From NCBI RefSeq assembly GCF_009914755.1, contig NC_060928.1: 64,000 bases of DNA; one strand, 5' to 3'. Below the pieces are notes generated by a model. That model searched no databases and had not been told where the DNA came from. It saw only the letters and a program-made list of their open reading frames with translations. Both the position numbers and the translations under genes were made by a program. Each line of letters opens with the position of its first letter. Within the stretch, counting starts at the first letter, position 1. This stretch comes from the human T2T-CHM13v2.0 reference genome, Homo sapiens. Positions 1-11,521 of the stretch are shown here, in pieces.

Positions 1-281
1 TCAAAAATTCTGCTCAGTTTTTCTTGGCATGAAGAATTGTTTAGCTAATTTTGAAAACTTGTGTTCACAAAGTCTAAAAATTTAATCCAAATTTGAATGA
101 GGAAGATGAGACAGTTTATCAACTTTCTCTAATGAAAGTTACTGGTAACATGAAAAAACAATTTCCTACTCATACAATAAATCTACACATATCTTTTTCA
201 GCCTTTTTGGACTTTGTTGTTGTTGTTGTTTAGTGGAAAGATTTGCTTTATATGATTAGACATTGAAAAATTTGTATGGCT

Positions 282-790
282 TTGGGAAAGAAAAAGATGC
301 CTCTGACATCCAGGAGCTGGCCTGGCACTCCAGCTATGTCTTAGCGATCTCCTCTTCAAATAAATGATTTCACAGAATACCGACATCAGACAATGCCACC
401 CTATGACCATGGTGAATCAAGACAAAAACAAGACCTCTCCGTAACCATGCATGAACACAGGCAAAGAATGAAATCTGTTTAAATCACAAACATGGCCCAA
501 TATCTCCCAATCCTGGCTAATTAGAGTGGCTATTGCTTGTTTATTGCTGACAGTTTTAGCTTGACTCTAGTCTTCCCTCTTCCTAGATAAGAATTATTGA
601 GAGATCCAGTCATGACCTTATATCACTTCCTAACAACATCCGATCTAGAGCAAAGCCATGCTTCTCAAACCCTCCTCCAAATCACGTGACACAAGGCCAC
701 ATTCTGTAAGTTCTTTCTAATGCCCTTTTAGTAAGACACCCCACCCCCCGCCCCGCACCATGTGTGTTCCTGGAGGAGGACATTGAGAAC
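282..790 (+). mobile_element. Old solo LTR (MER-type ERV LTR, subfamily not assigned)
   Basis: Resembles a recalled ancient LTR consensus (acagaataccgacatcagacaa...caagacaaaaacaagacc...tagataaga...gagcaaagcc). Confidence 0.5.
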
Positions 791-5120: not shown

Positions 5121-6110
5121 TGTAGGGACCAGCCCCACAGGGTCGGTGGGTTTTTCTCCCCATGTGTGGAGATGAGAGATTGTAGAAATAAAGACACAAG
5201 ACAAAGAGATAAAAGAAAAGGCAGCTGGGCCCAGGGCACCACTACCACCAAGACATGGAGACCGGTAGTGGCCCCAAATGCCAGGCTGTGCTGATATTTA
5301 TTGGATACAAGACATAGGGGCAGGGTAAGGAGTGTGAGCCATCTCCAGTGATAGGTAAGGTCACGTGGGTCACGTGTCCACTGGACAGGGGGCCCTTCCC
5401 TGTTTGGCAGCTGAGGCGGAGAGAGGAGACAGCTTACACCATTATTTCTGCATATCAGAGACTTTTAGTACTTTAACCAATTTTGCTACTGCTATCTAAA
5501 AGGCAGAGCCAGGTGCACAGGATGGAACATGACAGCAGACTAGGAGCATGACCACTGAAGCACAGCATCACAGGGAGACAGGCCTCCGGATAACTGTGGG
5601 TGGGCCTGACTGATGTCAGGCCCTCCTCAAGAGGTGGAGAAGTAGAGTCTTCTCTAAACTCCCCCAGGGAAAGGGAGACTCCCTTTCCTGGTCTGCTAAG
5701 TAGCGGGTGTTTTTCCTTGGCACTGACGCTACCACTAGACCATGGTCCACTTGGCAACAGGCGTCTTCCCAGATGCTGGCGTTACCGCTAGACCAAGGAG
5801 CCCTCTAGTGGCCCTGTCTGGACTTGACAGAGGGCTCACACTCTTGTCTTCTGGTCACTTCTCACCATGTCTCCTCAGCTCCTATCTCTGTATGGCCTGG
5901 CTTTTCCTAGGTTATGATTGTAGAGCGAGGATTATTATAATATTGGAATAAAGCGTAATTGCTACAAACTAATGATTAATGATATTCATGTATAATCATG
6001 TCTATGATCTAGATCTAGTATAACTCTTGTTGTTTTATATATTTTATTATATTGGAACAGCTCGTGCCCTCGGTCTCTTGCCTTGGCACCTGATTGGCTT
6101 GCCACCCACA
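5121..6110 (-). mobile_element. 3' LTR (LTR13-type), 990 bp
   Basis: Preceded on the minus strand by the PPT. Contains a minus-strand AATAAA at 5297-5302. Confidence 0.95.
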
Positions 6111-6127
6111 TCTGCCCCCTTTTTATT
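6111..6127 (-). other. Polypurine tract
   Basis: AATAAAAAGGGGGCAGA immediately precedes the TG of the 3' LTR on the minus strand. Confidence 0.85.
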
Positions 6128-6147
6128 AACTAGGATCGCCATCACCA

Positions 6148-6204
6148 TCATTGCTTGTCGTTGACTTTGGACTTGTTTCTGGACTCCTTGGAGGCATCTG
6201 CAGA
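6148..6204 (-). CDS. Putative Rec-like protein, coding exon 2 (18 aa + TGA)
   Basis: Acceptor TGTTGTCTCTTTTAG|TCTGCAG at 6205/6204. Reads SADASKESRNKSKVNDKQ* in a frame different from the Env tail. Confidence 0.6.
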   Translation of the reverse strand, partial: SADASKESRNKSKVNDKQ

Positions 6205-7897
6205 CTAAAAGAGACAACATAAGCATACCAGTATTAATAATGCCAGTGACAACAATGATTCTCCAAGGGGTTTGATCCATTTAAAGGGATTAAGATCAGA
6301 TAATTCTTTAGTTATTCCTTCAAAAATGTCTGAGCCAGGAACAGTGGATAAATGAGCCTGTGAAGCCTCAAAAATTTGTTCTTTAAGTTTTGAAATATCC
6401 AAGGTTAAGTTATCATCCCAGGCTTTTAAATGTCTTGAGAACTTTTCCCAGCTATGCTGATCTTTATTATAAGCATAAGGCATTATGCAGTAATCAGAAG
6501 TATTCCAATCACACTGTAATTGCATACGGTGTTCCAAATTCATAACTCTATTTCCCAATCATATCACACGTTGGCAGAGATCATTAATTTGATTAGCTAA
6601 TTTTTGATCAATTTGAGCCTTAGAATTCCAAAGTCTGGAGGAGTTTTTTTGCCATGCTTCAACACATTGAGTGGTTTGAACGGAATTGTGAATCATAACT
6701 CCAGCAGTTGCCACTGTTGCAGTAACCGCAATTAGACCTGCAATGACTGCAATAAGAGTAAAAATAAATCTCTTTGTTCTTTTGAGGATACCTTTAAGAA
6801 CTTCATTGACTATGTATATAGAGGGGGAAGACTCCCACGGATGATGTAAAGAAACTGGTATCCATACCCCCTCCCTAGCACTTACCAAGAGAATACTTGT
6901 TGTGGGATTAAAAGTAGCATCAATGCACGTGAACAGCTTACAATTATCACATTCTATAGTTTGTGTACTGGGAATGATAATTATATTTCTAACTAACAGC
7001 AGGTGAGTGGTTTTGACACAACTCCTGATGGGTATTACCTGTTTAGATATCAAGGTGATGTTGAATGTGGGTGTTTTGGTATTAGTGTGAAGGAGTTGAT
7101 AAGTAGTGTTCCATATCCTTATTCCTGTTATAGCTGCAGCTAATTTCCATAATTCAGGATGTTCTGGGGTAACAATGGGATGAATCATTTTTGGTCTAGG
7201 AGGAACAATGCCTGCGTCCATCCATTTAAATGGGTAAGGAGACACCTATTGTCTCAACCTGTATGACTGCCATCCATCCTTTATATAATCTAACAAATAA
7301 TTATACTCCGAGCATGAGGTATTTTTGCTGGAGCAATCCTGCGAATAATGCTCTTTTGGAGCCCAATCAATAACAGTTCCCATGGCTAGACTTTGCAGCA
7401 CAATGGCCTTGGGAGCATTACAATCATTCCATAAAATTGAATTCAGTAGAAAAGTTCCCTTTGTAGGTTTCTTTGGGCAGTCTGGCAGTCCTTTTGTTTT
7501 ATTGCTGTTAGTAGTGACAGGAGCCCTCAATTCCTCAAGAGGCTTAAGTTTAACAGTGAGAAGTTGAAAAGAATTGCTACTGAACACATTATGTACTTGA
7601 TAAGAATCATTTGTTAAGGATGGTACGGTCCACATCCAATTCTGGTAAGAATAAGCTAAACAGCCAGGTGATACACAGTGGTGGGTATTTATAGCCAAAT
7701 GACAGATTAAAGTGCATACCTTCTTCTTCCGGTTGAGCTGGAAACCTATCATCATTAGGGACCAGCATGAATGCACTATTATTAGTGTAAACTTCTACTG
7801 AGGAGTCCATCCAGGAGACAGACCAAATTAAAGGGGGAAAAGGAACATATGCCCAGTAGGTATAATTTTGAGTTGCCCCAACTGGTGGTATACTTAC

Positions 7898-8158
7898 TGC
7901 TGCACTGACTACCATAAAGACAGCCAGAATTATATTACTGGTCGTTTTTGGGATTCCTTTTTCTTTTAATAAATTTTCTGTGTGATGGGATAAGACCTTT
8001 ATTTGACCCCATGTTGGTGGAGTTGAACGAGTGGTGTTGTAGGTCACACAGCGAGATTTTGTCTCAATGTCGAGGTCATGAAGTTTATGTGTCAGGAGGC
8101 GAAATTTCCTCCTCGGTTTTTGAGGGGTCTTTGCCTTTTGTTTCTGGGAACGTTTCAT
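7898..8158 (-). CDS. Putative Rec-like protein, coding exon 1 (87 aa, shared with the Env signal peptide)
   Basis: ATG 8158 has A at -3. The exon is 261 nt and ends at donor GCA|GTAAGT (7898/7897). It encodes a basic patch KPRRKFR, LTHK and PPTW at residues 47-50. Confidence 0.6.
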
Positions 8159-8159
8159 C

Positions 8160-9696
8160 TTTGGAGTTATGGTGCAATTTCAGTTGTCGGTGGGGGGGAC
8201 CCACATGGGCTGTAGTCCTTTTCCTGGGGAAACACAAGCAAAACCCCTACCCCATGTTACGACTGTGCCTAATTCCTATTTGTTAGTTGCATCCTTCCAC
8301 CATACCCGCATTCCTTTTTGTGGATCAAATTTACTTCCAGTGAAATGTTGTTCTGCCACTGTAAAAGGTTGATTTCTTGCTAGGTTTAAGAAATTTAGTG
8401 TAAAAGGAGCCAGATTTAACTGAGCATGAGGAGTGGCAGCATCCCTCTGTTTTAGTGTCCTGTTTTCGAAGTTGATCTTTGAGTGTTTTATTGGCTCGTT
8501 CCACCAAGGCCTGTCCTTGAGAGTTATAGGGGATGCCAGCTGTGTGAGTAATTGCCCATGTTTGAGTGAACCTTTTAAAAGCAGCACTAGTGTATCCGGG
8601 GCCGTTGTCAGTTTTCAGTTTCTCGGGACAGCCCATCACCGAGAAATATGAAAGCATATGTTGTTTAACATGAGCTGTACTTTCCCCTGTGTGACAAGTG
8701 GCCCAGATAAAATGAGAAAAGGTGTCAATAGTTACATGTATAAAAAAAGCTTGCCAAAAGCAGGATAATGAGTCACGTTCGTTTGCCAGAGAGCATTCTG
8801 TGAAAGTCCTTTAGGGTTAACTCCTGAAGAAAGTGGCTGTAAAATTAACACTTGACAAGTAGGACAGTGACGCACATGGTTTTAGCTTGTTTCCATGTAA
8901 GGGGGAACTTTTTTTGGAGTCTCGCAGCGTTGACTTGAGTTAAAGTATGAAAATTTCGTGCATTTGTAAAAATGGGAGCAACTAATATATCAGCTCTGGC
9001 ATTTGCTGCCAAGAGGGGTTTGGGGAGGGGTGTGTGGGCCTGAATGCGAGTAATGTAGAAAGGAGAAGACCTTGCTTTGAGCACAGACTAAAACCTTTGA
9101 AAAAGAAAGAATAGGTTATCATTAGGCAGAAATTTGATTAAGGCAGTTTCAATATTGCGAGCAACATGTGCTACATACGCCAAGTCAGAAAGAATGTTAA
9201 CTGGTTCAGGGAAATCTTCAAGGACAGCCATAACAGCAAGTAGCTCAGCTCATTGTGCTGAAATAGCTCCTGTATTAAGAACACGTTCTCTTGGTCCTGT
9301 ATATGCTGCTCGGCCATTACAGGAAGCATCAGTAAAAACAGTGACAGCTTCAGCCAATGGGGTGTTTCTAGTAATGTTAGGCAAAATCCAAGAAGTGAGG
9401 AAGGAACTGAAATAATTTTACATTAGGATAGTGATTATCAATTATACCCGGGAAAGTTGCCAAATGTACTTGCCAAGCGATGCAGGTTGCAAAAGCCTGT
9501 TGGACTTGTAATCGGGTGAGGGGAACAATGATTTTTTTTGGTGGGGGGGGGGCGCTTAATAACCTTGTCTTCTAGCTGCATTCCTAAATAGTGATAAGGA
9601 GAAGAAGTTTGGATTTTTTCTGGGGCAATAACTAAACCGGCTGCTGCAACTGCTTTTTGTACTGCAGAAAAACAAGATATTAACACAGAGCGAGAA
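8160..9696 (-). pseudogene. pol: pol remnant: RT C-terminal piece, tether/RNase H and integrase
   Basis: Motifs AGLVIAPEKIQTSSPYHYLG (post-YxDD RT), VFTDAS (RNase H), KTDNGPGY and GQALVERAN (IN). Stops and frameshifts are present. The first IN catalytic Asp reads Asn (WQTNVTH). YxDD and pro are absent. Confidence 0.9.
8221..8245 (-). promoter_or_regulatory. env/rec splice acceptor
   Basis: GGTTTTGCTTGTGTTTCCCCAG|GAA at 8224/8223 in the IN 3' region, 65 nt upstream of the env ATG. Confidence 0.75.
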
Positions 9697-10381
9697 TTTG
9701 CCGCGAGATCAGCTGCTTGCTGAGCAACATCAGCGGGCTGTAGCTGATTTTGTGCCGCAGGACGGCAGGGAGGCTGTAAAATTACAGGAAATTGCCAGGC
9801 TTTGGGATCCCCATATTCTCTTGCCTGTGCTATAGCCCTGATAAGAGGAGTGCCATTTTGAGGAATGTATGTAACTTGTTGCTTGTGAGTGGCAAACTTG
9901 GGTAGACGAGATTACTTGCTGAGCAGGTCTTTCCTGGGCCTGAAATCCAGGCTGCCACCGGCAACTGTGGACCAGGCTTCAAGGGAGCCTGAGGCTTCAA
10001 GGGAACCCGGTTTGTAGAAAAGGAACCAGGCCTCAAGGTATCCTGTGACTCCAGGGGAGTCCGTGACTCTAGCCGAGTCTGATTAGGAGGAAAAGAACCA
10101 GGCTTCAAGAGAGCCTGTGACTCTAGCCGAGTCCGATTAGGAGGAAAGGAACCAGGCTTCAAGGGAGCCTGCGGCTCTAACTGAGTCTGATTAGGAGGAA
10201 AAGAAACAGGCATGAGAAAACTAGGCTGTGGAGGGATAGGGTTGAGGGCCTCATTACTGGGTAGAACAAGCAGAAGGTTGACAGCCCTACAGCAGGGCTG
10301 AACAGGGACAGGGTTGAGATAATACAGGAGGGTTTTTATAAAGTTTAAATAAGCCGAGTACCTAGTACTGGCCTGTCCCAT
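9697..10381 (-). pseudogene. gag: gag remnant (MA N-terminus, Pro-rich repeat region, start of CA)
   Basis: ATG at 10381 gives MGQASTRYSAYLNFIKTLL, an HML-type myristoylated MA start. A deletion follows at ~10324. After a frameshift the sequence reads RAIAQAREYGDPKAWQFPVILQ, like the HML p15/CA boundary. Confidence 0.85.
9970..10212 (-). repeat. 54-bp (18-codon) tandem repeat in gag, about 4 degenerate copies
   Basis: Units start at 10085, 10139 and 10193 (aggaggaaaRgaaccaggc...). Peptide unit approximately PGSFPPNRTRLESQALLK. Confidence 0.9.
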
Positions 10382-10408
10382 GGTGTCCCCGGAATGCTGA
10401 GTGCTCAA

Positions 10409-10417
10409 GCTTACCAC
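10409..10417 (-). promoter_or_regulatory. Proviral major splice donor
   Basis: GTG|GTAAGC between the PBS and the gag ATG, the usual HML position. Confidence 0.7.
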
Positions 10418-10508
10418 CAAGCTTATTGACCGCAATCCTCAGGAATCTGTCGTCGAAATCCTCTGCTGAGTCCCGCACTCAAGGTGCAACTTCACACAGC
10501 GAGGGAGA

Positions 10509-10527
10509 GCCCCATGTCGGAGCGCCA
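10509..10527 (-). other. Primer-binding site, tRNA-Lys-like (degenerate)
   Basis: TGGCGCTCCGACATGGGGC lies 2 nt after the 5' LTR. It differs from the Lys1,2 PBS TGGCGCCCAACGTGGGGC by one insertion and two substitutions. Confidence 0.85.
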
Positions 10528-10529
10528 GA

Positions 10530-11521
10530 TGTAGGGACCAGCCTCACAGGGTCAGCGGGCTTTTCTCCCTGTGTGCAGAGATGAGAGACTGTAGAAATAA
10601 AGACACAAGACAAAGAGATAAAATTGGAGACAGCTGGGCCTGGGGGACCACTACCACCAAGACGTGGAGTCCGGTAGTGGCCCTGAATGCCAGGCTGCAC
10701 TGATATTTATTGGATACAAGACATAGGGGTAGGGTAAGGAGTGTGAGCCATCTCCAATGATAGGTAAGGTCACGTGGGTCACGTGTCCACTGGACAGGGG
10801 GCCCTTCCCTGTTTGGCAGCTGAGGCGGAGAGAGGAGACAGCTTACGCCATTATTTCTGCATATCAGAGACTTTTAGTACTTTCACTGATTTTGCTACTG
10901 CTATCTAAAAGGCAGAGCCAGGTGTACAGGATGGAACATGAAAGCGGACTAGGAGCATGACCACTGAAGCACAGCATCACAGGGAGACAGTTAGGCCTCT
11001 GGATAACTGTGGGTGGGCCTGACGATGTCAGGCCCTCCACAAGAGGTGGAGAAGTAGAGTCTTCTCTAAATTCTCCCAGGGAAAGGGAGACTCCCTTTCC
11101 TGTCTGCTAAGTAGCGGGTGTTTTTCCTTGGCACTGACGCTACCACTAGACCATGGTCTGCTTGGCAACAGGCGTCTTCCCAGATGCTGGCATTACCGCT
11201 AGACCAAGGAGCCCTCTAGTGGCCCTGTCTGGACTTGACAGAGGGCTCACACTCTTGTCTTCTGGTCACTTCTCACCATGTCTCCTCAGCTCCTATCTCT
11301 GTATGGCCTGGCTTTTCCTAGGTTATGATTGTAGAGCGAGGATTATTATAATATTGGAATAAAGCGTAATTGCTACAAACTAATAATTAATGATATTCAT
11401 GTATAATCATGTCTATGATCTAGATGTAGTATAACTCTTGTTGTTTTATGTATTTTATTATACTGGAACAGCTCGTGCCCTCGGTCTCTTGCCTCGGCAC
11501 CTGGGTGGCTTGCCGCCCACA
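10530..11521 (-). mobile_element. 5' LTR (LTR13-type), 992 bp
   Basis: Direct repeat of 5121-6110 with about 50 differences by manual alignment. Followed on the minus strand by the PBS. Confidence 0.95.

What the first reader, a model, noticed from the sequence alone, without database searches (positions are those of the whole stretch)
6148..8158. Intact spliced Rec-like ORF (87+18 = 105 aa) in an otherwise dead HML-4/LTR13 provirus
Seen: the env frame from ATG 8158 reaches a donor GCA|GTAAGT after exactly 261 nt. An acceptor TGTTGTCTCTTTTAG|TCTGCAG at 6204 opens 18 codons and a TGA. The joined protein is MKRSQKQKAKTPQKPRRKFRLLTHKLHDLDIETKSRCVTYNTTRSTPPTWGQIKVLSHHTENLLKEKGIPKTTSNIILAVFMVVSAA|SADASKESRNKSKVNDKQ. 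The major donor (10415/10414), env acceptor (8224/8223) and 3' LTR AATAAA are also intact, and every env-inactivating lesion found lies inside the predicted intron. Known (recalled): HML-2 Rec, a Rev/Rex-like CRM1 RNA-export adaptor, is 105 aa made of 87 Env-leader residues plus an 18-aa alternative-frame exon starting SAG, with an Arg-rich NLS near 13-20 and an NES starting at W50. Exon lengths, splice positions, LTHK and PPTW50 coincide here. Rec is usually attributed to HML-2, with Rec-like domains proposed for HML-6 and HML-10; I do not know of one described for HML-4. Inference: HML-4 was a complex retrovirus with its own Rec system, and this locus may still encode it. Caveats: the NES is degenerate (WGQIKVLSHHT lacks the last Leu). 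Two short uORFs precede the ATG (10515 in strong context, 8206 in weak context). About 4 lesions in ~1.7 kb of env could miss 318 nt by chance, so intactness alone does not show selection.
Basis: partly seen in the sequence, partly recalled or inferred. Interest (0 to 1): 0.88.

Follow-up and report, generated by a model that had tools for sequence, protein, structure and literature searches.

The report
Rec-like gene relic in HML-4 provirus
A broken ancient retrovirus copy on human chromosome 4 still holds, unbroken, the two small spliced pieces that make the RNA-export protein Rec in its cousin HERV-K(HML-2). The same layout appears in most related virus groups, so it is probably an inherited relic and not something special to this copy.

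Summary
On the minus strand, ATG 8158 opens 87 codons ending at GCA|GTAAGT (7898|7897). TTTTAG|TCT (6205|6204) opens 18 codons and a TGA.

Protein-anchored mapping puts both splice signals in the same alignment columns as the rec donor and acceptor of an intact HML-2 provirus (chr7, 699-aa Env). Pfam HERV-K_REC scores the leader above its cut-off.

The signals belong to the family. GT is kept in 7 of 9 HML-4-type copies and AG in 13 of 15. They also go beyond it: in 22 other HML-like env loci sampled, GT was at the donor column in 11 of 21 readable rows and AG in 17 of 18.

This locus is not unique. A chr16 copy (HML4_16p13.3) also keeps the whole ORF.

Against a working Rec:
- The Arg run is private to this copy.
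- The third hydrophobic residue of the NES is H or Q in every readable copy.
- Exon 2 is less conserved than the overlapping env frame.
- Both ends of exon 2 are fixed by env codons.
- No transcript evidence could be obtained.

LTR13 U3 holds an unusually stable RNA fold (z -5.4 to -6.5), a candidate export element.

Verdict: probable HML-4 counterpart of rec, apparently undescribed, most likely a relic.

The parts
10530..11521 (-). 5' LTR (LTR13-type), TG...CA ends
   Evidence: Aligns with the 3' LTR: 988 aligned sites, 47 mismatches, K2P 0.0496. Direct repeats.
10409..10417 (-). Major 5' splice donor GTG|GTAAGC (cut 10415|10414), upstream of the gag ATG (10381)
   Evidence: Read. Use not tested.
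10492..10515 (-). Short uORF (7 codons plus stop) in the leader, ATG in a strong context
   Evidence: Read.
8276..10438 (-). Remnants of gag and pol. The gag N-terminus carries a 54-nt tandem repeat (10063-10211). The end of RT, the integrase Zn domain and the integrase core remain. Most of gag, pro and RT are missing.
   Evidence: Pfam: RVT_1 (weak), Integrase_Zn, rve. Tandem repeat. Frames.
8223..8240 (-). Env splice acceptor ...TTTCCCCAG|G (cut 8224|8223)
   Evidence: Read. AG kept at this column in 8 of 9 aligned copies.
7898..8158 (-). Rec-like coding exon 1 = Env leader codons 1-87
   Evidence: Translation. Pfam HERV-K_REC 31.4-35.1 bits against a 27.5 cut-off. 31% identity to the HML-2 leader, E 9e-13.
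7892..7897 (-). Rec-type splice donor GTAAGT (Val-Ser codons of the Env signal peptide)
   Evidence: Same alignment column as the HML-2 rec donor. GT kept in 7 of 9 copies.
6205..7897 (-). Predicted intron = body of env (SU and most of TM), holding all four env lesions (two frame shifts, two in-frame stops)
   Evidence: Frames. Pfam HERV-K_env_2 and GP41 on the pieces.
6205..6224 (-). Rec-type acceptor: pyrimidine tract (14 of 18) plus AG. The AG comes from Leu-Val codons of the TM anchor.
   Evidence: Same column as the HML-2 rec acceptor. AG kept in 13 of 15 copies.
6148..6204 (-). Rec-like coding exon 2: 18 codons in the frame shifted by one base relative to env, plus TGA
   Evidence: Open to the same stop in 12 of 15 copies.
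5121..6110 (-). 3' LTR. AATAAA at 5302-5297.
5498..5930 (-). Very stable RNA fold in U3 (LTR positions 181-613; core 5586-5885). Candidate export or response element. The same element lies in the 5' LTR at about 10999-11296.
   Evidence: z -5.40 with 0 of 200 shuffles as stable. z -6.50 for the 433-nt window. All 11 copies tested give z -2.5 to -5.9.

Best explanation
This is the HML-4 (HERVK13/LTR13) counterpart of the rec gene of HERV-K(HML-2), kept as a relic in a provirus that has lost most of gag-pro-pol and whose env is broken four times.

In the living virus, a doubly spliced mRNA would have formed as follows. The leader exon ends at the major donor and joins the env acceptor. The message then reads Env codons 1-87, uses the donor formed by the Val-Ser codons at the end of the signal peptide, and joins an acceptor in the TM anchor. 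There it reads 18 codons in another frame.

The product would be a small basic protein with a Lys-rich N-terminus, a conserved PPTWGQIK core, a truncated hydrophobic segment and a charged tail. [quoted passage not shown] The unusually stable U3 fold of LTR13 is the likely RNA partner.

Shown here: homology of the leader, positional identity of both splice signals with HML-2 rec, their presence across HML-4 copies and other HML groups, past purifying selection on the leader, and the U3 fold.

Inferred: that the sites were spliced in HML-4, that the protein exported RNA, and that U3 is its target.

That the ORF is intact at this locus is most likely luck.
For: - Sequence as described.
- Pfam HERV-K_REC is over its cut-off on the leader.
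- An intact HML-2 env on chr7 gives 87 codons, then GTAAGT, and TTAG|TCTGCAGG opening 18 codons. This matches the published Rec layout (PMC2649029).
- Two independent protein anchors (an HML-2 query and an HML-4 query) place the window's donor and acceptor in the same columns as the HML-2 ones.
- In HML-4-type copies GT is kept in 7 of 9, AG in 13 of 15, and the 18-codon frame in 12 of 15.
- Among 22 other HML-like env loci, GT is at the donor column in 11 of 21 readable rows. Another 8 carry A at +1, in a pattern typical of CpG decay. AG is at the acceptor column in 17 of 18 covered rows, always behind a pyrimidine tract. The codon before Val ends in A in each of these 17 rows, which is a synonymous choice.
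- The homologous acceptor in HML-8-derived env is used in macaque cells according to RNA-seq (eLife 2024, PMC11379458, passages read).
- Leader dN/dS is 0.22-0.84 in 10 of 10 pairs among 5 copies.
- The LTR13 U3 fold has z -5.4 and -6.5, is present in 11 of 11 copies, and sits at the same LTR interval (181-613) as the most structured window of the HML-2 LTR. The HML-2 RcRE lies in U3 (RcRE location from PMC11379458).
Against: - Both splice signals and the stop are built from conserved env codons (Val-Ser; Leu-Val; Met-Met/Ile), so env constraint alone could keep them.
- Exon 2 is less conserved between groups than the overlapping env frame: mean identity 0.31 against 0.41 over 46 pairs.
- The Arg run at 16-17 is found in 1 of 9 copies. 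The rest are Lys-rich with 0-2 Arg, which is poor for an arginine-rich RNA-binding motif.
- The position matching the last Leu of the HML-2 NES is H or Q in 7 of 7 readable copies.
- The spliced sRec of SERV-K/MER11 had no export activity, and that virus uses a CTE (PMC11379458).
- GTRAGT is no more frequent than chance.
- Covariation in the U3 fold is weak: 6 compensatory variants against 4.1 in the null, reached by 91 of 500 null runs. The antisense strand also folds well, z -3.5.
- The U3 fold has no sequence similarity to HML-2 U3.
- The HML-2 control LTR reached only z -2.3, so the z-score says little about RcRE-type function.
- No transcript, junction or peptide evidence could be examined, and RefSeq lists no transcript here (hub table).
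Confidence: 0.6

Rival explanations
1. By-product of env. The GT, the AG with its pyrimidine tract and the TGA are kept only because they encode conserved Env residues: the end of the signal peptide, the Cys-rich TM anchor and the Met-Met of the tail. HML-4 never used them for a rec message. It exported its RNA through a constitutive transport element, for which the stable U3 fold is the candidate, as shown for the MER11 LTR of HML-8.
For: - Each signal maps onto conserved env codons.
- The env frame is more conserved than the rec frame, 0.41 against 0.31.
- The NES and the Arg-rich motif are not conserved.
- A MER11-derived CTE that works without Rec is documented (PMC11379458).
- The U3 fold shows no similarity to the HML-2 U3.
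Against: - Synonymous positions are kept as well. The donor is GTR-AGT, with the Ser codon as AGT in 20 of 21 and AGC in 1 of the 21 rows that read Ser there. The codon before Val ends in A in the 17 mapped acceptor rows across groups whose leaders share only about 30% identity.
- The same acceptor column in HML-8-derived sequence is in fact spliced (PMC11379458).
- In HML-2 these very sites make Rec.
Confidence: 0.25
2. The unspliced Env signal peptide is the working factor, not a spliced Rec. As with MMTV Rem-SP/p14 and JSRV, the long leader, cleaved from Env, would carry the nuclear function. The spliced form would then be unnecessary or a minor side product.
For: - The leader is long and basic like other betaretroviral signal peptides, whose N-extensions run 61-78 residues (PMC2649029, section 5).
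- Selection on the leader cannot tell the signal peptide apart from Rec exon 1.
Against: - In HML-2, the nearest tested relative, the signal peptide does not shuttle and has no export activity, whereas Rec does (PMC2649029, abstract).
- This rival does not explain the synonymous-site conservation of the splice signals.
Confidence: 0.1
3. Host-retained gene. The intact 105-codon ORF at this locus is kept by selection in humans and makes a protein with a present-day function.
For: - The ORF and all four splice signals are intact while env is broken four times.
- A second locus (chr16) is intact as well.
Against: - Four lesions miss the 318 nt with probability about 0.5 (my arithmetic).
- 2 of 9 copies are fully intact and 3 of 9 have an intact exon 1, which is what neutral decay gives.
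- Donor or acceptor are lost in other copies at roughly the neutral rate.
- There is no RefSeq transcript over the provirus (hub table).
- The basic motif has drifted relative to the family.
Confidence: 0.05

Closest known systems
HERV-K(HML-2) Rec (formerly cORF/K-Rev), with its RcRE in LTR5 U3
   Same: - 87 leader codons followed by GTAAGT at the Val-Ser codons.
- An acceptor TTAG|TCTGCAG in the TM anchor.
- 18 alternative-frame codons ending in a TGA that overlaps the env Met-Met.
- LTHK and PPTW motifs at the same positions.
- A Pfam HERV-K_REC match.
- The most structured part of the LTR lies in the same U3 interval.

   Different: - Leader identity is only 31% (22 of 70 aligned residues).
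- Lys-rich in place of the RRRRHRNR run.
- The NES lacks its last hydrophobic residue.
- Exon 2 shares 3-5 of 18 residues.
- The U3 fold shows no sequence similarity and is far more stable.
- No experimental evidence of splicing or function.

sRec of SERV-K/MER11 (macaque HML-2 x HML-8 recombinant; eLife 2024, PMC11379458)
   Same: It is a rec-type message whose acceptor lies in non-HML-2 env sequence at the same site, showing that this site works outside HML-2.
   Different: The second exon of sRec is 62 residues, sRec has no export activity, and the virus relies on a CTE from the MER11 LTR. The HML-4 exon is 18 codons, as in HML-2.
'Rec domain' reported in HML-10 type II (Grandi 2017, PMC5667498) and HML-6 (cited in PMC7232394)
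   Same: Recognition of a Rec-like Env leader outside HML-2 by domain search. The chr1:154.8 Mb locus sampled here, probably the 1q22 HML-10 copy (judged by band only), has the same donor, acceptor and 18-codon exon.
   Different: In the passages I read, those papers describe the leader domain only (puteins of 72-76 residues), not the splice signals or the second exon. HML-4 is not mentioned.
MMTV Rem / signal peptide p14 and the JSRV Env signal peptide
   Same: Betaretroviral export function carried by the long Env leader (PMC2649029).
   Different: Rem contains the complete signal peptide, whereas Rec does not (PMC2649029, section 6). That Rem's second exon stays in the env frame is recalled and was not checked here. 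The HML-4 layout follows the Rec pattern.

Membership tests
HERV-K Rec (Pfam PF15695; HML-2 Rec/RcRE system) | Env leader homologous to Rec exon 1 | tested here: met
   31.4 bits (93 aa) and 35.1 bits (190 aa) against a cut-off of 27.5; 36.5 bits in the genome scan; BLASTP E 9e-13 against the HML-2 leader. The model also hits at least 150 places in the genome, many of them not HML-2, so this shows leader homology and not a spliced gene.
HERV-K Rec (Pfam PF15695; HML-2 Rec/RcRE system) | Splice donor directly after leader codon 87, just upstream of the signal-peptidase site | tested here: met
   GCA|GTAAGT sits in the same column as ATGGTG|GTAAGT of HML-2. GT is kept in 7 of 9 copies. This is the sequence signal only.
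HERV-K Rec (Pfam PF15695; HML-2 Rec/RcRE system) | Acceptor in the TM anchor opening a short exon in another frame (18 residues) | tested here: met
   TTTTAG|TCTGCAGATG against TTGTTAG|TCTGCAGGTG, with 18 codons plus TGA in both. AG kept in 13 of 15 copies, frame open in 12 of 15.
HERV-K Rec (Pfam PF15695; HML-2 Rec/RcRE system) | Arginine-rich NLS/RNA-binding motif at residues 13-20 | tested here: inconclusive
   The window has 3 Arg and 2 Lys in 13-20. The other 8 copies have 0-2 Arg, with Lys, Ser, Asn or His instead. The region is basic enough for an NLS but is not an Arg run.
HERV-K Rec (Pfam PF15695; HML-2 Rec/RcRE system) | Leucine-rich NES around residues 50-60 | tested here: not met
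   The window reads W50-G-Q-I-K-V-L-S-H-H. The residue aligned with the last Leu of LKKLTQL is H or Q in 7 of 7 copies readable there. A non-canonical signal is not excluded.
HERV-K Rec (Pfam PF15695; HML-2 Rec/RcRE system) | Structured response element in U3 of the LTR | tested here: inconclusive
   There is a strong fold (z -5.4 and -6.5) in 11 of 11 copies. It has no similarity to HML-2 U3, covariation is weak, Rfam gives nothing, and the HML-2 control reached only z -2.3.
HERV-K Rec (Pfam PF15695; HML-2 Rec/RcRE system) | Doubly spliced transcript observed | not testable with these tools
   No RNA-seq or EST data were available. RefSeq lists no transcript over 5121-11521 (hub table).
HERV-K Rec (Pfam PF15695; HML-2 Rec/RcRE system) | CRM1-dependent shuttling and export of unspliced RNA | not testable with these tools
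   This needs a bench assay.
HML-4 (HERVK13 / LTR13) group | Env and LTR similarity to recognised HML-4 loci | tested here: met
   The env stretch is 85-91% identical to six full-length copies, including chr16:2.68 Mb. That copy corresponds to the locus named HML4_16p13.3 near KCTD5 (the position of KCTD5 is recalled). The leader also agrees with the HML4a Env putein printed in the supplement of Vargiu 2016 (PMC4724089, supplement passages seen).

The most novel reading that the evidence does not exclude
Rec-type double splicing (about 87 leader codons plus a short alternative-frame exon from the TM anchor) is ancestral to the whole HML supergroup and not an HML-2 speciality. HML-4 paired it with its own non-homologous, very stable U3 RNA element. 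The two human loci that keep the whole ORF (4q13.3, here, and 16p13.3, which is transcribed in several cell types) still produce a 105-residue Rec-like protein when LTR13 is active.
Probability: 0.1. Interest if true: 0.7.

Novelty: new member of a known kind. Interest (0 to 1): 0.45.

Why it matters
Rec is usually presented as an HML-2 speciality. Only 'Rec domains' have been noted in HML-10 and HML-6.

If HML-4 and most other HML groups carry the same donor, acceptor and short second exon, then complex-retrovirus regulation of RNA export goes back to the root of the HML supergroup, tens of millions of years ago. In that case Rec, Rem and the signal-peptide factors become stages of one history.

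In practice, it gives two natural human ORFs (4q13.3 and 16p13.3) and one defined U3 RNA fold. These can go straight into existing export reporters to ask whether the element depends on a protein or is constitutive.

For human biology the weight is small unless transcripts and protein are found.

Tried and rejected
- Four older papers were not held: the original HML-4 paper (Seifarth 1998, PMC110222), the HML-1/9 and HML-5 family papers, and Magin-Lachmann 2001. A remark on a cORF/rec-like frame in them cannot be excluded.
- Literature searches for an HML-4 rec and for named loci found none. The HML-8 paper says a domain search found no Rec domain there. The HML-9 and HML-7 papers say nothing on the matter.
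One more locus was allowed. It shows GTATGT at the donor column, but its env end is missing.
- Rfam: nothing near a gathering score. No tRNA-like gene in the LTR.
- LTR13 against the HML-2 LTR: only about 100 nt at the U5 end align, and nothing in U3.
- The covariation test of the U3 fold is weak. Compensatory variants were not above the null (91 of 500 null runs reached the observed count). Pair-breaking variants were fewer than the null in all but 6 of 500 runs. The 8 compensatory pairs come from a structure fitted to the same alignment, so they count for little.
- The HML-2 LTR, used as a positive control for fold z-scores, gave only -2.2 to -2.3. The z-score therefore cannot be read as a test for an RcRE.
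- Hexamer frequency as evidence for the donor was rejected, since GTRAGT occurs at the chance rate.
- I did not fold the joined protein or search with it, because a joined sequence may not be entered. The exons were handled separately.
Full report
WHAT IS THERE

On the minus strand the window holds a provirus bounded by two LTRs, 11521-10530 and 6110-5121. Over 988 aligned sites they differ at 47 (K2P 0.0496). At the commonly used 0.13% per site per million years (a recalled rate), that puts integration at roughly 19 My.

Between the LTRs lie the following:
- a leader with the major donor GTG|GTAAGC (10415|10414);
- the start of gag (ATG 10381) with a 54-nt repeat in 2.8 copies (10063-10211);
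- directly after that, the end of RT, then the integrase Zn and core domains;
- env.

Most of gag, pro and RT are gone. Env is broken by two frame shifts and two in-frame stops. Its pieces still match Pfam HERV-K_env_2 and GP41.

The group name HML-4 rests on three things. The env stretch is 85-91% identical to six other full-length copies, including chr16:2.68 Mb. That copy corresponds to the locus called HML4_16p13.3 near KCTD5 (the gene's position is recalled). The leader also agrees with the HML4a Env putein printed in the supplement of Vargiu 2016 (supplement passages only).

THE OBSERVATION

- ATG 8158 opens 87 codons that end in front of GTAAGT (7897-7892).
- The tract ending TTTTAG at 6205 is followed by 18 codons and TGA 6150-6148.
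- The env acceptor (8224|8223), both uORFs (10515, 8206) and the 3' AATAAA (5302) are as stated.
- All four env lesions lie in 6205-7897.

Taken alone this is not beyond chance. GTRAGT occurs 4 times in 5.2 kb against 4.84 expected. An 18-codon open alternative frame has a probability of about 0.4. Four lesions would miss the 318 nt about half the time (both figures are my arithmetic).

COMPARISON WITH HML-2

The genome holds an HML-2 provirus on chr7 with an intact 699-residue Env. Its codon 87 is followed by GTAAGT. The tract ending TTGTTAG in its TM anchor is followed by TCTGCAGG and 18 codons in the other frame. This matches the published description of Rec: residues 1-87 of Env plus 18 residues from another frame, NLS 13-20, NES 54-60 (PMC2649029, abstract and sections 5-6 read).

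The HML-4 leader aligns with the HML-2 leader at 31% identity (22 of 70, E 9e-13), with LTHK and PPTW in register. It scores above the Pfam HERV-K_REC cut-off. I mapped the Rec boundaries onto DNA through tblastn with two different queries, one HML-2 and one HML-4. Both place the window's donor and acceptor in the same columns as the HML-2 ones. This positional homology is the real content of the finding.

FAMILY LEVEL

I aligned the env leader region of 9 copies and the env end of 15 copies.

Rows left out:
- L014, the same locus as L010;
- L016, a 129-nt inverted fragment;
- L011, for the leader only (107 nt present);
- the roughly 70%-identical HML-2-like loci L017-L030.

L013 is a more distant relative, 66-81% identical. 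It was kept and is named where it matters.

Results:
- GT stands at the donor column in 7 of 9 copies (lost in L002 and L005).
- AG stands at the env acceptor column in 8 of 9.
- AG stands at the rec-type acceptor in 13 of 15 (lost in L005 and L006).
- The 18-codon frame runs to the same stop in 12 of 15. The other three have indels.
- Exon 1 is free of stops and shifts and has its ATG in 3 of 9 copies (window, L004, L005).
- All parts together are intact in 2 of 9: the window and L004 on chr16.

So the layout belongs to the family, it decays at about the rate expected for neutral sequence, and this locus is not unique.

The window copy has a one-base gap relative to all 14 other copies in the pyrimidine tract just 5' of the acceptor. 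That gap is one of the two env frame shifts, and it leaves the acceptor signal in place.

Leader dN/dS between 5 copies without frame shifts is 0.22-0.84 in all 10 pairs. It is 0.33-0.52 between the two deeper sublineages. The leader was therefore under purifying selection while the virus diversified. This cannot separate a role as signal peptide from a role as Rec exon 1.

BEYOND HML-4

The Pfam Rec model finds at least 150 places in the genome over its cut-off, many with modest scores like the window's 36.5 bits. I fetched 20 of these and added L013 and L019, giving 22 loci that are neither HML-4 proper nor the HML-2 reference.

Donor column (21 rows readable; L081 not covered):
- 11 carry GTRAGT.
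- 8 carry A at +1 (ATGAGT, ATGAGC or ATAAGC).
- 2 differ otherwise.

In the largest group, the GT and AT forms differ at two adjacent positions in the way CpG decay produces. Its founder may therefore well have had GT. This is an inference.

Acceptor column (18 rows covered; L072, L075, L081 and L082 not covered):
- 17 have a pyrimidine tract plus AG, followed by TCTGCAG or a close variant, under at least one of the two mappings.
- L077 is offset by an indel in both mappings.
- The alternative frame runs 18 codons in 8 rows, 11 in 6, 9 in 1 and 8 in 2.

One further locus (L084, chr19:61.41 Mb) has GTATGT at the donor column. Its env end is missing.

Synonymous positions take part in this conservation. 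The Ser codon is AGT in 20 of the 21 rows that read Ser at that column. The codon before Val ends in A in the 17 rows mapped at the acceptor. This holds although leaders of different groups share only about 30% identity.

Independent experimental support comes from the literature. [quoted passage not shown]

WHAT SPEAKS AGAINST A WORKING REC SYSTEM IN HML-4

1. Both ends of exon 2 and the donor are made of conserved env codons: Val-Ser, Leu-Val, Met-Met or Met-Ile. The 18-codon length follows from an env tail without indels.
2. Between groups the env frame over this stretch is more conserved than the rec frame, mean identity 0.41 against 0.31 over 46 pairs. HML-4 and HML-2 share only 3-5 of 18 residues in exon 2.
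3. The other 8 copies read Lys, Ser, Asn or His there.
4. The residue aligned with the last Leu of the HML-2 NES is H or Q in 7 of 7 readable copies.
5. The spliced sRec of SERV-K/MER11 has no export activity, and that virus uses a constitutive element from its MER11 LTR.
6. I could examine no transcripts. RefSeq lists none over the provirus (hub table).

A CANDIDATE RNA PARTNER

Because Rec works through a structured element in U3 (433 nt in HML-2; PMC11379458), I scanned the LTRs.
- LTR13 positions 226-525 (window 5885-5586, minus strand) fold with z -5.40. None of 200 shuffles was as stable. The antisense strand gives -3.50.
- The 433-nt window 181-613 gives z -6.50.
- The homologous stretch folds with z between -2.5 and -5.9 in all 11 copies tested: both LTRs here and 9 other loci, down to 85% identity.
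- The HML-2 LTR has its most structured window at the same interval, 181-613, but only at z -2.3. The z-score is therefore not a test for RcRE function.
- The two U3 regions share no detectable sequence. Rfam and ARAGORN find nothing.
- Covariation is weak. I used the structure of the window copy alone and counted variant types in the others. One-sided changes: 35 keep a pair and 45 break one. Two-sided changes: 6 keep and 2 break. A column-swap null gives 30.3, 48.9, 4.1 and 3.3. It reaches the compensatory count in 91 of 500 runs and an equally low number of breaks in 6 of 500.

The fold is real and ancestral to LTR13. Whether it is a protein-dependent response element, a constitutive transport element or a DNA-level feature is open.

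PRIOR WORK

Searches for an HML-4 rec returned nothing on it.
- A 'Rec domain' has been reported for HML-10 type II. There it was called unexpected because Rec was thought exclusive to HML-2 (PMC5667498, passages).
- The same has been reported for 23 HML-6 elements (cited in PMC7232394, passages).
- A domain search found none in HML-8 (PMC10194239, passage).
- In the passages I read, none of these describes the donor, the acceptor or the second exon outside HML-2.
- The original HML-4 paper and three other older papers were not held. They may contain a remark I could not see. bioRxiv supplements were closed.

VERDICT

The most likely reading (0.6) is that this is the HML-4 counterpart of rec, inherited from a layout shared by most HML groups, and surviving here and at 16p13.3 by chance.

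The main rival (0.25) is that the signals are by-products of env coding and that HML-4 exported its RNA through a constitutive U3 element.

A present-day function at this locus is unlikely (0.05). The remaining 0.1 goes to the signal-peptide rival, in which the cleaved Env leader and not a spliced Rec carried the function.

It is a new member of a known kind. It is of moderate interest to retrovirologists, mainly because it points to an old origin of Rec-type splicing and supplies a defined U3 fold to test.

Noticed in passing
L004 (G000:C16:2679979-2685188): This is a second HML-4 copy with everything intact: ATG, 87 codons, donor GCG|GTAAGT, AG acceptor and the 18-codon exon. It corresponds to HML4_16p13.3 near KCTD5, reported as transcribed in three microglia models. 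It may be the lncRNA gene ERVK13-1, which is studied in cancers. That identification is recalled and was not checked.
   Followed up: partly
window 5498-5930 (minus strand); also about 10999-11296 in the 5' LTR: LTR13 U3 holds a multi-stem RNA fold far more stable than shuffled sequence (z -5.4 to -6.5). It is present in all 11 copies tested. It has no Rfam match and no similarity to HML-2 U3.
   Followed up: partly
window 10063-10211: A 54-nt tandem repeat in 2.8 copies (89% matches) lies in the Pro-rich part of the gag remnant.
   Followed up: no
G000:C17:44169569-44189005 (L007, L012, L010/L014): Three HML-4-type env copies lie within about 20 kb on chr17. One of them is only 80% identical to the window. 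This suggests a local duplication or a nested cluster.
   Followed up: no
genome-wide; L070-L080: Pfam HERV-K_REC hits at least 150 places over its cut-off. One large group of leaders (ITIA-M/V-SIP at the donor column) mostly carries A at donor position +1 and has an 11-codon alternative exon where HML-2 and HML-4 have 18.
   Followed up: partly
L084 (G000:C19:61408600-61411700): A Rec-like leader with a 162-aa open frame has GCG|GTATGT at the donor column. It is possibly the HML-6 ERVK3-1 region, judged by chromosome position only. The env end is absent from the 3.1 kb fetched.
   Followed up: partly
window 8098-8113 (leader residues 16-20): The Arg residues of the basic motif (RRKFR) are private to this copy. 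The 8 other copies have Lys, Ser, Asn or His there.
   Followed up: yes
L016 (G000:C8:146238343-146241538), next to L002: An inverted fragment of roughly 130-200 nt from the env leader and donor region (94-95% identical) lies about 1.6 kb from the chr8 HML-4 provirus.
   Followed up: no
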